DNA from: Escherichia coli
Lineage (GTDB): Bacteria; Pseudomonadota; Gammaproteobacteria; Enterobacterales; Enterobacteriaceae
Reading direction: 5' to 3' (one strand)
Assembly (NCBI RefSeq): GCF_017348835.2
Contig: NZ_CP071375.1
Length of the DNA: 64,000 nt
Shown here piece by piece: positions 21,277-24,200 of the stretch (positions are counted from its first letter, which is position 1; the number at the start of each line of letters is the position of its first letter). A program made the position numbers.

Positions 21277-24200
21277 TAATCAAGCCGCAGCAGATCTGCT
21301 TTCGGGCAGGTCTGCTCATCCACCTCAGGCAATACCTCTCACAGCAATTAGTTCTTCTTCCTCACTTTTCCGCTACAATTATCAACAAGTTGAATCGATA
21401 AGAGGCGGTAATGCGTCAGACTAAAACCGGTATCCTGCTGGCAAACCTGGGTACGCCCGATGCCCCCACACCTGAAGCGGTAAAACGCTATCTGAAACAA
21501 TTTTTAAGCGACAGACGCGTGGTTGATACCTCACGGTTGTTATGGTGGCCATTGCTGCGCGGCGTGATTTTGCCGCTGCGCTCGCCGCGTGTGGCGAAGC
21601 TGTATGCCTCTGTCTGGATGGAAGGTGGCTCGCCACTGATGGTTTACAGCCGCCAGCAACAGCAGGCGCTGGCACAACGTTTACCGGAGACGCCCGTAGC
21701 GCTGGGAATGAGCTACGGCTCGCCATCACTGGAAAGCGCCGTAGACGAACTCCTGGCAGAGCATGTAGATCATATTGTGGTGCTGCCGCTTTATCCGCAA
21801 TTCTCCTGTTCTACGGTCGGTGCGGTATGGGATGAACTGGCACGCATTCTGGCGCGCAAACGTAGCATTCCGGGGATATCGTTTATACGTGATTACGCCG
21901 ATAACCACGATTACATTAATGCACTGGCGAACAGCGTACGCACTTCTTTTGCCAAACATGGCGAACCGGATCTGCTACTGCTCTCTTATCATGGCATTCC
22001 CCAGCGTTATGCAGATGAAGGCGATGATTACCCGCAACGTTGCCGCACAACGACTCGTGAACTGGCTTCCGCATTGGGGATGGCACCGGAAAAAGTGATG
22101 ATGACCTTTCAGTCGCGCTTTGGTCGGGAACCCTGGCTGATGCCTTATACCGACGAAACGCTGAAAATGCTCGGAGAAAAAGGCGTAGGTCATATTCAGG
22201 TGATGTGTCCGGGCTTTGCTGCGGATTGTCTGGAGACGCTGGAAGAGATTGCCGAGCAAAACCGTGAGGTCTTCCTCGGTGCCGGCGGGAAAAAATATGA
22301 ATATATTCCGGCGCTTAATGCCACGCCGGAACATATCGAAATGATGGCTAATCTTGTTGCCGAGTATCGCTAAAGCTGAGCGGTAAAGAACTGAGCGCCG
22401 TCGCGAAGAGCCTCGTCGGCGGTTTTCATCATCCGTGAATAATGCAAAAAGGCGTGCAGTGTGCCTGGGTAGAGTTTGAACTCACAGGGCTGCTGATGCG
22501 CCGCTAACGTCTGGTAAAGCAGACGGCTGTCATCCAGCAGCGGATCGAACTCCGCCCCGGCAATAAAACAGGGCGGAACTTCGCGAGTGAGATCATTATT
22601 AAACAGACAGTAATACGGCGACTCGCGGTCCGCGTCGTTGCTTAAATACGCCTCTTCATACATCTGCAAATCCTGTTGCGTTAAGCCATCCCAGACACCG
22701 CCCAACAGACGACGAGTCACGGAATCCCGTAATCCGTAAAGCCCATACCACAGCAAAACACCCGCAACTTTACCGCAATCGATCTGTTTATCACGCAACC
22801 ACAACGCACTGGCGAGCGCCAGCATGGCACCTGCGGAATCACCGGCAAAGCCAATGCGGGACATATTGATTTGATAATCCTCCACCTGCTGGTGGAAATA
22901 ACAACAAGCAGCCACAATTTCCTCTATCGCTTGCGGAAAACGCGCTTCAGGTGAAAGGGTGTAATCAATACCAATCACCGTACATTGGCTGTAGCTTGCC
23001 AGCAGGCGCATGATGCGATCGTGGGTATCGAGATTGCCGAGAATAAAACCGCCTCCATGCAAATAAAATAGCGTCGCTGGGCTATCTGGCTGCGGACAAA
23101 AGAGACGTGTTTCCACCTGCCCATATTTTGTGGGAACCATGTAAGCTCTGGTTGCCATTTCTGGAGCGCCCGCATTCCAGAATCGGCGCTCAAGCGTGTA
23201 ATACTGTCGTTGCTCAGCAATCGTTCCCGTTGCGGGCCAGGGCGGTAAATCCGGCTGAAGAGTATTCACAACGGTCTTCATTTCAGCAGAAATAAGGTCC
23301 AGAACAGGTAATTTGTTTTCCGGCTTCATACAAAAACTCCTTTCAAATTACGTCATTGTAAGGAACCACTGCCATGAAAATGCGATCCCGCCTGCTGATA
23401 TTGAAACTGGCTGCGTCTCGCGCGCTCCCGTCAGATTGTGTTAACATTCGCCGCTCAGTTAACCACCCGTAAAAACAACCATGAAATTTCCCGGTAAACG
23501 TAAATCCAAACATTACTTCCCCGTAAATGCACGCGATCCGCTGCTTCAGCAATTCCAGCCAGAAAACGAAACCAGCGCCGCCTGGGTAGTGGGTATCGAT
23601 CAAACGCTGGTCGATATTGAAGCGAAAGTGGATGATGAATTCATTGAGCGTTATGGATTAAGCGCCGGGCATTCACTGGTGATTGAGGATGACGTAGCCG
23701 AAGCGCTTTATCAGGAACTAAAACAGAAAAACCTGATTACCCATCAGTTTGCGGGTGGCACCATTGGTAACACCATGCACAACTACTCGGTGCTCGCGGA
23801 CGACCGTTCGGTGCTGCTGGGCGTCATGTGCAGCAATATTGAAATTGGCAGCTATGCCTATCGTTACCTGTGTAACACCTCCAGCCGTACCGATCTTAAC
23901 TATCTACAAGGCGTGGATGGCCCGATTGGTCGTTGCTTTACGCTGATTGGCGAGTCCGGGGAACGTACCTTTGCTATCAGCCCTGGCCACATGAACCAGC
24001 TGCGGGCTGAAAGTATTCCGGAAGATGTGATTGCCGGAGCCTCGGCTCTGGTTCTCACCTCTTATCTGGTGCGTTGCAAGCCGGGTGAACCCATGCCGGA
24101 AGCAACCATGAAAGCCATTGAGTACGCGAAGAAATATAACGTACCGGTGGTGCTGACGCTGGGCACCAAGTTTGTCATTGCAGAGAATCCGCAGTGGTGG

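What the first reader, a model, noticed from the sequence alone, without database searches (positions are those of the whole stretch)
22370..22373. Convergent hemH and aes overlap by 4 bp at their stop codons
hemH ends at 22373 (+) and aes ends at 22370 (-), so the two convergent genes share 4 bp and have no room for intergenic terminators. Transcription of each must terminate inside the other gene.
Basis: seen in the sequence. Interest (0 to 1): 0.2.

Follow-up and report, generated by a model that had tools for sequence, protein, structure and literature searches.

The report
hemH and aes share stop codons
Two E. coli genes that face each other (hemH and aes) really do overlap by four bases at their stop codons; this is a known, common arrangement, and aes seems to end its transcript at a hairpin hidden inside the end of hemH, while hemH transcripts run into aes until the Rho factor stops them.

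Summary
hemH (21411..22373, +) and aes (22370..23329, -) share the tetranucleotide CTAA, which holds TAA for hemH and TAG for aes. K-12 MG1655 has the same layout, and so do relatives in Escherichia, Citrobacter and Salmonella.

The inference that each transcript must end inside the other gene is also supported.
- **aes:** the strongest hairpin-plus-T-tract in the whole 64-kb window lies on the minus strand at 22337..22300, 33 nt past the aes stop and inside hemH codons 297-309. Its stem codons show reduced synonymous variation, and the hairpin occurs only in genomes that have (or recently had) aes next to hemH.
- **hemH:** no convincing intrinsic terminator follows it. Published bicyclomycin data place a Rho termination region about 315 nt into antisense aes, where the RNA is C-rich and G-poor.

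None of this is new in kind. CTAA-type convergent overlaps and terminators embedded in the partner gene were described in 2007. hemH-aes is listed as a convergent "excludon" in a 2025 E. coli map.

One small addition: about 5% of complete E. coli genomes carry a 13-bp deletion that widens the overlap to 26 bp.

The finding is ordinary and of low interest.

The parts
21411..22373 (+). hemH (ferrochelatase) coding sequence, 320 aa, stop TAA at 22371-22373
   Evidence: ORF list. TIGR00109 equivalog, 448 bits, residues 1-319. RefSeq annotation in PE164 and K-12.
22370..23329 (-). aes (acetyl esterase) coding sequence, 319 aa, stop TAG (reverse complement of 22370-22372)
   Evidence: ORF list. NF007547 equivalog, 629 bits, residues 1-319. 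RefSeq annotation.
22370..22373 (.). Shared tetranucleotide CTAA, holding the two stop codons on opposite strands
   Evidence: Read directly from the sequence. It is one of the four tetramers (CTAA, TTAA, CTAG, TTAG) that allow this, as described by Lillo and Krakauer 2007, PMC2174442.
22300..22337 (-). Stem-loop (15-bp stem with 3 G.U pairs, 8-nt loop) of the probable aes intrinsic terminator. It is encoded by hemH codons 297-309 ([13 protein letters not shown]).
   Evidence: Found by the terminator scan. Folding energy -23.3 kcal/mol, z = -4.4, 0 of 200 shuffles as stable. Best hairpin-plus-T-tract in the 64-kb window on either strand. Only 0.5% of synonymous recodings fold as well. Synonymous diversity is 0.22 against 0.41 expected, P about 1e-4. 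The hairpin is present in all aes-bearing loci and absent from aes-free loci.
22290..22299 (-). Tail CAUAUUUUUU after the stem. The U6 run (22295..22290) is the complement of the hemH Lys-Lys codons AAA AAA. The predicted aes 3' end is about 22291-22295, which corresponds to K-12 498935-498939 on the minus strand.
   Evidence: The T-tract is interrupted (CATATTGCTT) in several Citrobacter species whose HemH has Lys-Gln instead.
22371..22383 (.). The 13 bp TAAAGCTGAGCGG, flanked by a TAAAG direct repeat. This stretch is deleted in about 4.8% of complete E. coli genomes. The deletion gives Aes a new C-terminus (..FFSDRLQQD, 322 aa) and a 26-bp overlap, while hemH keeps a TAA stop.
   Evidence: alignment A3, RefSeq annotation of strains GmF052 and Es_ST80, and reciprocal identity bands of 263 versus 5155 genomes.
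22396..22426 (+). Weak hairpin followed by UUUU after the hemH stop, inside the aes codons for [12 protein letters not shown]. It is not a convincing terminator.
   Evidence: z = -0.65, with 43 of 200 shuffles as stable. The 5' arm is not conserved across species. No plus-strand terminator-like site was found in 22373..24000.
22634..22815 (+). C-rich, G-poor stretch of the hemH read-through RNA (C/G ratio 1.5-2.7), a likely Rho loading and termination zone. It contains the published Rho termination region peak (K-12 499332, window 22688).
   Evidence: Composition in 78-nt windows. Adams et al. 2021, Supplementary file 2: upstream/downstream reads 79/24 untreated and 422/522 with bicyclomycin, Rho score 4.07, p = 6e-10.

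Best explanation
This is an ordinary tail-to-tail gene junction of the CTAA type, with the transcription stop signals moved into the partner genes. Relatives that lack aes have the order adk-hemH-gsk with a short spacer, so aes looks like an addition to (or a loss from) that layout. In the aes-bearing group its 3' end abuts hemH so closely that the two stop codons share bases.

**aes transcript (inferred).** The ribosome stops at the aes TAG. Thirty-three nucleotides later the RNA forms a 15-bp hairpin followed by CAUAUUUUUU, which releases RNA polymerase about 80 nt into hemH. This hairpin is written in hemH codons 297-309, and the hemH codon choices there are held constant to keep it. It protects hemH, and adk upstream of it, from antisense transcription.

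**hemH transcript (partly shown by published data).** There is no usable intrinsic terminator after hemH. After the TAA the RNA is untranslated and antisense to aes. Rho ends it roughly 300 nt downstream, in a C-rich, G-poor stretch.

**Consequence.** The two mRNAs have complementary 3' ends. The overlap is about 80 nt on the aes side and 300 nt or more on the hemH side. This is why the pair appears in the published E. coli excludon list. The exact 4-bp overlap is not itself functional. It is the default outcome of complementary stop codons, and it drifts between +2 and -26 bp among relatives.
For: - **Overlap and gene identity:**
- **Hairpin strength:** found by the scan; -23.3 kcal/mol, z = -4.4; top-ranked of 220 hairpin-plus-T-tract sites in the window on both strands, ahead of the htpG terminator; unique in the window, so not a repeat family.
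- **Codon choice matters:** only 0.5% of codon-usage-weighted synonymous recodings of the same peptide fold as well. A Pluralibacter genome without aes encodes almost the same peptide ([11 protein letters not shown]) with different Pro codons and forms no hairpin.
- **Synonymous constraint:** the lowest 13-codon windows of the whole hemH gene are 294-312 (0.22 against 0.43 gene-wide). I299, P300 and A301 have invariant codons in 26 of 26 orthologues, while the loop codon L302 varies freely. The amino-acid-matched null gives P of about 1e-4.
- **Strand specificity:** 94.6% of stem cells pair in the minus-strand RNA against 78.5% in the plus-strand RNA. Eighty-two cells pair only through G.U on the minus strand, against 17 that pair only on the plus strand.
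- **Co-occurrence with aes:** hairpin energy is -16.7 to -22.7 kcal/mol in 24 aes-bearing loci and -2.9 to -12.8 in 31 aes-free loci, with no overlap between the two ranges.
- **hemH side:** no plus-strand terminator; a C-rich zone at 22634-22815; and a Rho termination region antisense to aes at K-12 499332, Rho score 4.07.
- **Transcript overlap:** hemH-aes is listed as a convergent excludon.
- **Ancestral layout:** aes-free relatives have their own hairpin in the hemH-gsk spacer.
Against: - **No mapped 3' end.** The curated Term-seq table of Adams et al. 2021 lists no RNA 3' end between K-12 498800 and 499399 on either strand, in three growth conditions. The aes terminator is therefore not confirmed experimentally. 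Low aes expression may be the reason.
- **Non-canonical tail.** Four bases (CAUA) separate the stem from the U6 run. My hand calculation of the d'Aubenton-Carafa score is below zero. In the Citrobacter freundii group the T-tract is broken (CATATTGCTT) although the hairpin is kept.
- **No compensatory substitutions.** Pairing across species is no better than in column shuffles. The structural evidence therefore rests on conservation and G.U asymmetry alone.
- **Phylogeny not controlled.** The contrast between aes-bearing and aes-free loci is not phylogenetically independent, because the aes-bearing genomes form one related group.
- **Coarse Rho coordinate.** The Rho region coordinate comes from 800-nt comparison windows, so it is only approximate.
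Confidence: 0.68

Rival explanations
1. The hairpin inside hemH is a by-product of the protein sequence and of ordinary codon preference, and is not a terminator. The peptide Ile-Pro-Ala ... Thr-Pro-Glu happens to be near-palindromic at the codon level. aes transcription simply runs on into hemH until Rho or a polymerase collision stops it.
For: Recodings of the same peptide already fold better (mean -13.3 kcal/mol) than dinucleotide shuffles (mean -10.9). CCG and GCG are common E. coli codons (general knowledge). No compensatory changes were found. No Term-seq 3' end was reported at the site. The minus-strand RNA beyond the hairpin is also C-rich (C/G up to 2.1 at 22239-22162), so Rho could act there. 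The T-tract is not conserved in some Citrobacter species.
Against: The observed fold lies in the lowest 0.5% of recodings. Synonymous diversity is halved specifically in the stem codons, at P of about 1e-4 with amino acids matched, while the loop codon is free. G.U pairs favour the minus-strand RNA. The hairpin is absent wherever aes is absent, including a genome that encodes almost the same peptide.
Confidence: 0.22
2. The overlap is a regulatory device (an excludon). Complementary 3' ends let expression of one gene lower the other, through RNase III cleavage of the RNA duplex or through polymerase collisions. For example, OxyR-driven hemH induction under peroxide stress could silence aes.
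For: hemH-aes appears in the E. coli convergent excludon list, based on RNA-seq coverage overlap in at least 50% of 58 transcriptomes. Termination is asymmetric: the hemH read-through covers 300 nt or more of aes, while aes covers only about 80 nt of hemH. Tight juxtaposition of the two genes (+2 to -26 bp) is kept across three genera.
Against: I found no pair-specific data on reciprocal expression, double-stranded RNA or RNase III for this pair. Any pair with zero intergenic space must pass the coverage-overlap criterion, so the listing does not show regulation. There is no evident functional link between haem synthesis and an acetyl esterase that inhibits MalT (general knowledge). aes is dispensable and decays in some lineages (E. 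albertii, Escherichia sp. E1V33, E. coli HN68), and it was lost in Trabulsiella.
Confidence: 0.12
3. The overlap is an annotation artefact: one of the two genes really ends earlier, so there is an intergenic gap.
For: Nothing in the data points to this.
Against: Stop codons are fixed by the sequence, not by a prediction. Both proteins align to their curated family models right up to their last residues. Orthologues in three genera end at the same positions.
Confidence: 0.01

Closest known systems
Four-base convergent stop-stop overlaps (CTAA, TTAA, CTAG, TTAG), described by Lillo and Krakauer 2007, Biol Direct 2:22 (PMC2174442)
   Same: Same geometry and same tetramer class. That paper counts 58 convergent overlaps in E. 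coli. It notes that their rho-independent terminators must lie in the partner's coding sequence, and finds 19 pairs with one such terminator and 2 pairs with two. The hemH-aes junction fits the case of one embedded terminator.
   Different: Nothing differs in kind. The text I read does not name the hemH-aes pair.
Convergent excludons and overlapping 3' UTRs (Sanmartin et al. 2025, NAR, ExcludonFinder, PMC12288877)
   Same: hemH-aes is listed by name among the 165 convergent excludons of MG1655. The paper states that terminators embedded in the neighbour's transcription unit are the usual cause, predicted for 146 of the 165 pairs.
   Different: Classic excludons (Listeria) involve long antisense overlaps with demonstrated reciprocal expression. 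Here only the transcript overlap is documented, not mutual regulation.
Canonical intrinsic (Rho-independent) terminator
   Same: A G+C-rich stem-loop followed by a U-rich tail, 33 nt after a stop codon, on the sense strand of the gene it would serve.
   Different: It lies inside another gene's reading frame. It has an A/U-rich lower stem with three G.U pairs, and a 4-nt spacer before the U6 run. No 3' end was mapped in the table available to me.
Bidirectional intrinsic terminators between convergent genes (Ju, Li and Liu 2019, Nat Microbiol; cited from memory, paper not held)
   Same: A single hairpin sits at the meeting point of two convergent transcription units.
   Different: Here the hairpin works for one strand only. 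On the plus strand it is weaker (-14.5 kcal/mol, z = -1.8) and is followed by GAAAUGAUGG, not a U-tract. hemH instead depends on Rho.

Membership tests
4-bp convergent stop-stop overlap (CTAA class) | Two genuine protein-coding genes on opposite strands, tail to tail | tested here: met
   Equivalog-level matches to TIGR00109 and NF007547 over the full lengths. RefSeq annotation agrees.
4-bp convergent stop-stop overlap (CTAA class) | The junction tetramer is CTAA, TTAA, CTAG or TTAG, so that both stops share two or three bases | tested here: met
   CTAA at 22370-22373. TTAA in Salmonella and some Citrobacter.
4-bp convergent stop-stop overlap (CTAA class) | The arrangement is conserved in orthologous loci, so it is not a one-off | tested here: met
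   20 of 26 loci from other species with an intact adjacent aes ORF overlap by 4 bp, as does K-12. Exceptions are +2, 0, -10 and -11 bp in other species, and -26 bp in two inspected E. coli genomes that represent about 4.8% of complete genomes.
Intrinsic (Rho-independent) terminator, for aes | A stable G+C-rich stem-loop in the nascent RNA | tested here: met
   15-bp stem, -23.3 kcal/mol, z = -4.4. It is the best such site in the window.
Intrinsic (Rho-independent) terminator, for aes | A U-tract directly after the stem | tested here: inconclusive
   The tail is CAUAUUUUUU, with U6 starting 4 nt after the stem. It passes the scan's rule. It is interrupted in several Citrobacter species.
Intrinsic (Rho-independent) terminator, for aes | It lies shortly downstream of the stop codon of the gene it serves, on the same strand | tested here: met
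   The stem starts 33 nt after the aes TAG on the minus strand.
Intrinsic (Rho-independent) terminator, for aes | A discrete RNA 3' end in the U-tract in vivo or in vitro | tested here: not met
   No 3' end is listed at K-12 498800-499399 in Supplementary file 1 of Adams et al. 2021. Other Term-seq tables were not available as text. Absence from a single dataset is weak evidence, so I describe the site as a probable terminator and not a demonstrated one.
Rho-dependent termination, for hemH | Read-through increases when Rho is inhibited with bicyclomycin | tested here: met
   Taken from the literature, not from my own experiment. Adams et al. 2021, Supplementary file 2: 499332 (+), antisense to aes, Rho score 4.07, p = 6e-10.
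Rho-dependent termination, for hemH | An untranslated, C-rich and G-poor RNA upstream of or at the release zone | tested here: met
   The C/G ratio is 1.5-2.7 at 22634-22815 on the plus-strand RNA, downstream of the hemH stop. The lack of translation there is inferred.
Convergent excludon | Transcripts of the two genes overlap | tested here: met
   Listed in Table 1 of Sanmartin et al. 2025. The overlap also follows necessarily from the 4-bp gene overlap.
Convergent excludon | Mutually exclusive expression, or RNase III processing of the duplex | not testable with these tools
   No pair-specific expression or double-stranded RNA data were available.
Bidirectional terminator | The hairpin is flanked so that a U-tract follows it on both strands | tested here: not met
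   The plus-strand copy is followed by GAAAUGAUGG and folds at only -14.5 kcal/mol.

The most novel reading that the evidence does not exclude
When aes came to lie against hemH, the end of the hemH reading frame was reshaped to carry the terminator of its new neighbour. The reshaping involved both codon choice and possibly the residues Thr/Ala-Pro-Glu at positions 305-307, which read Ser-Ala-Glu or Asp-Ala-Ala in aes-free relatives. hemH itself lost its own intergenic terminator and now depends on Rho. The resulting lopsided 3' overlap would let hemH transcription, which OxyR induces, damp aes expression but not the reverse. That would be a clear natural case of a haem-biosynthesis gene under dual protein and RNA-signal selection for the benefit of a neighbouring gene.
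Probability: 0.2. Interest if true: 0.35.

Novelty: already known. Interest (0 to 1): 0.12.

Why it matters
It matters little beyond bookkeeping. The junction is a textbook-type example of how compact bacterial genomes place stop signals inside neighbouring genes, and it is already annotated and catalogued.

The one modestly useful point is practical. Codons 294-309 of hemH appear to do double duty, so recoding or "codon optimising" hemH, or deleting aes with its flanks, could change antisense transcription into hemH and adk.

The 13-bp deletion allele gives a natural variant for testing whether the distance from stop codon to hairpin matters. In that allele the overlap is 26 bp and the aes stop lies only about 11 nt from the hairpin.

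Tried and rejected
- **Plus-strand terminator for hemH.** The hairpin CGCCGUCGCG..CGUCGGCG followed by GUUUUC at about 22396-22426 is no more stable than shuffled sequence (z = -0.65), and its 5' arm is not conserved. I rejected it as a terminator.
- **Bidirectional terminator.** Rejected, because no U-tract follows the hairpin on the plus strand.
- **Covariation test of the hairpin on 27 orthologues.** There was no signal above column shuffles and only one double change, so it is uninformative. Structural support comes instead from synonymous constraint and G.U asymmetry.
- **Known RNA families.** Rfam gave no match at E <= 1 in 20400-23600.
- **Repeat element (REP-like).** The inverted repeat occurs once in the window, so I rejected this.
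- **Mapped 3' ends in other datasets.** The supplements of the SMRT-Cappable-seq and TERMITe papers mention neither gene. For Choe 2022, Dar and Sorek 2018, Conway 2014 and Grünberger 2022, no supplementary text is held. Ju et al. 2019 is not held.
- **Synonymous constraint at the aes 3' end.** I looked for it as a sign of a hemH signal. The last 20 codons show none (0.30-0.46 against 0.41 overall). A mild minimum at codons 273-295 remains unexplained.
- **First recoding script.** It timed out and was rerun with fewer samples.
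Full report
**1. The observation**

The plus strand reads ...GAG TAT CGC TAA agc... at 22362-22376. The ORF list gives hemH as 21411..22373 (+, 320 aa) and aes as 22370..23329 (-, 319 aa). 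The shared bases are CTAA at 22370-22373. They hold TAA for hemH and, on the other strand, TAG for aes.

Both products match curated equivalog models from their first residue essentially to their last. HemH matches TIGR00109 at 448 bits and Aes matches NF007547 at 629 bits. The stops are therefore the true protein ends.

The window is E. coli. The 2.1-kb hemH-aes stretch is 100% identical to strain PE164 and is present in 5424 of 5426 complete genomes. RefSeq annotates the same 4-bp overlap in PE164 and in K-12 MG1655, where hemH is 498055..499017 and aes is 499014..499973 on the complement.

**2. How general the arrangement is**

A scan of one genome per species with HemH as query returned 72 loci.

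- In 20 of the 26 loci from other species that carry an intact adjacent aes ORF, the genes overlap by exactly 4 bp, as CTAA or TTAA. These are Escherichia, many Citrobacter, and Salmonella arizonae and diarizonae.
- The other six have +2, 0, -10 or -11 bp.
- Pluralibacter, Superficieibacter, Pantoea, Rosenbergiella, Mixta and others have no aes at this position. Their order is adk-hemH-gsk with a 55-144-bp spacer that carries its own stem-loop.

Within E. coli the junction is polymorphic. A 13-bp deletion between two TAAAG repeats (window 22371-22383) keeps a TAA stop for hemH. It shifts the aes frame so that Aes ends ..FFSDRLQQD (322 aa) and the genes overlap by 26 bp. Reciprocal searches put this allele in 263 of 5424 genomes. 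What is conserved is therefore tight abutment, not the figure of 4 bp.

**3. Where aes transcription probably ends**

The terminator scan found a minus-strand site at 22337..22300: a 15-bp stem and an 8-nt loop, followed by CATATTTTTT.

- *Strength.* As RNA it folds at -23.3 kcal/mol, z = -4.4, and none of 200 shuffles was as stable. The plus-strand copy is much weaker, at -14.5 kcal/mol. In my own scan of both strands of the whole window it ranks first of 220 hairpin-plus-T-tract sites, ahead of the htpG terminator. It occurs once in the window, so it is not a repeat element, and it matches no Rfam family.
- *Position.* It starts 33 nt after the aes stop and lies in hemH codons 297-309 ([13 protein letters not shown]). 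The U6 run is the complement of hemH Lys294-Lys295 (AAA AAA).

**4. Whether the hairpin is more than a side effect of the protein sequence**

Four tests bear on this.

- *Recoding.* Among 1000 codon-usage-weighted synonymous recodings of the same 21 codons, the mean fold is -13.3 kcal/mol (sd 3.4), and 0.5% reach the observed value.
- *Synonymous constraint.* Across 26 hemH orthologues from aes-bearing genomes, pairwise synonymous diversity is 0.43 gene-wide. The lowest 13-codon windows of the whole gene fall at codons 294-312 (0.22). Ile299 ATT, Pro300 CCG and Ala301 GCG are invariant, and the loop codon Leu302 varies freely (0.62). Against a null drawn from the same amino acids elsewhere in hemH, the hairpin codons give 0.224 against 0.413 (sd 0.051), P of about 1e-4.
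- *Strand asymmetry.* Stem cells pair in 94.6% of cases on the minus-strand RNA against 78.5% on the plus-strand RNA. Eighty-two cells pair only via G.U on the minus strand and 17 only on the plus strand.
- *Co-occurrence with aes.* The homologous 38 nt fold at -16.7 to -22.7 kcal/mol in 24 aes-bearing loci, and at -2.9 to -12.8 in 31 aes-free loci. A Pluralibacter genome without aes encodes [11 protein letters not shown] with other Pro codons and has no hairpin. Two Trabulsiella genomes without aes keep the hairpin, but their spacer still holds the 3' end of an aes-like gene seen intact in a third Trabulsiella. This points to a recent loss.

Several points count against the hairpin being a working terminator.

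- There are no compensatory double substitutions.
- The contrast between aes-bearing and aes-free loci is not phylogenetically independent.
- The U-tract is 4 nt from the stem and is broken in the Citrobacter freundii group.
- The curated Term-seq table of Adams et al. 2021 lists no 3' end in K-12 498800-499399.

I therefore call this a probable intrinsic terminator, not a demonstrated one.

**5. Where hemH transcription ends**

No terminator-like site follows hemH on the plus strand. The only hairpin with a short U run (about 22396-22426) is no better than shuffled sequence, and its arm is not conserved. The last 20 aes codons show no synonymous constraint.

Published data fill this gap. Supplementary file 2 of Adams et al. 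2021 (PMC7815308) lists a Rho termination region at 499332 (+), classed as antisense to aes. Upstream and downstream reads are 79 and 24 untreated, and 422 and 522 with bicyclomycin, giving a Rho score of 4.07 and p = 6e-10. That coordinate maps to window 22688, 315 nt past the hemH stop. It falls in the one strongly C-rich, G-poor stretch of that RNA (C/G 1.5-2.7 at 22634-22815). The coordinate is coarse, because it comes from 800-nt windows.

**6. Mechanism in one picture**

- *Shown.* The genes overlap. A strong, conserved, strand-specific hairpin with a U-run lies 33-83 nt beyond the aes stop, inside hemH. Plus-strand transcription antisense to aes is Rho-sensitive.
- *Inferred.* aes RNA ends at that hairpin, sparing hemH and adk from antisense transcription. 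hemH RNA, untranslated after its stop, is ended by Rho a few hundred nucleotides into aes. The asymmetry makes sense because read-through into the non-essential aes is cheap, while read-through into hemH and adk is not.
- *Not shown.* Any regulatory use of the resulting complementary 3' ends.

**7. Comparison with what is known**

Lillo and Krakauer 2007 (PMC2174442) describe the CTAA/TTAA/CTAG/TTAG class. They count 58 convergent overlaps in E. coli, and note that 19 of those pairs have one rho-independent terminator inside the partner's coding sequence. Sanmartin et al. 2025 (PMC12288877) list hemH-aes by name among 165 convergent excludons of MG1655, and attribute most of them to embedded terminators. 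The site fails the test for a bidirectional terminator. The finding is therefore already known in kind, and the pair itself is already catalogued. My additions are the terminator's exact position, the evidence of synonymous constraint on it, and the 26-bp allele.

**8. Verdict**

Novelty is "already known" and interest is low (0.12). The most novel reading still open is that the end of hemH was reshaped to carry its neighbour's terminator and that the lopsided overlap gives hemH one-way control over aes. I give it about 0.2 probability. It would be of modest interest if true.

Noticed in passing
window 22371..22383; loci L075 and L076: About 4.8% of complete E. coli genomes (263 of 5424, by reciprocal BLAST identity bands) carry a 13-bp deletion between TAAAG direct repeats at the hemH-aes junction. 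It gives Aes an altered C-terminus (322 aa, ..FFSDRLQQD) and a 26-bp overlap, and it places the aes stop only about 11 nt from the hairpin.
   Followed up: yes
window 38920..63302: A 5808-aa ORF (BapA_N plus many Big_13 Ig-like repeats) is followed by an IS4-family transposase ORF (56403..57731). Next comes an ORF with Big_13, FG-GAP and RTX repeats (57789..61136), then an ABC transporter (61140..63302). This looks like a giant type-I-secreted adhesin gene split by an IS4 insertion.
   Followed up: partly
window 21280..21410 versus K-12 497820..498054 (L002 2321..2555): The adk-hemH spacer is 131 bp in this window but 235 bp in K-12. K-12 has about 104 extra bases, including a G-rich repeat and a hairpin-T-tract (AGGCCGGATATTCATTCGGCCTTTT). 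A published Term-seq 3' end at K-12 497939 (+) lies in that extra segment.
   Followed up: partly
K-12 498060 (+), which corresponds to window about 21416: Adams et al. 2021 list a strong Rho termination region 5 nt into the hemH ORF (Rho score 4.02, p = 1e-17). This suggests premature Rho-dependent termination at the hemH 5' end, or of adk read-through.
   Followed up: no
window 22445..22513 (aes codons 273-295): Synonymous diversity in aes has a mild minimum here (0.27 against 0.41 overall) across 17 orthologues. It lies near the catalytic His region, and its cause is unknown.
   Followed up: no
L007 (E. albertii), L008 (Escherichia sp. E1V33), hit H15 (E. coli HN68), L021 and L023 (Trabulsiella): aes is truncated, disrupted or deleted in several lineages while hemH stays intact. 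The Trabulsiella spacers keep the last bases of an aes-like gene and also keep the hemH-internal hairpin.
   Followed up: partly
L031 (contig CACSKA010000001.1): A record titled "Chryseobacterium sp. 18061" carries an enterobacterial adk-hemH-gsk locus (HemH 83% identical to E. coli). This is probably a mislabelled or contaminated assembly.
   Followed up: no
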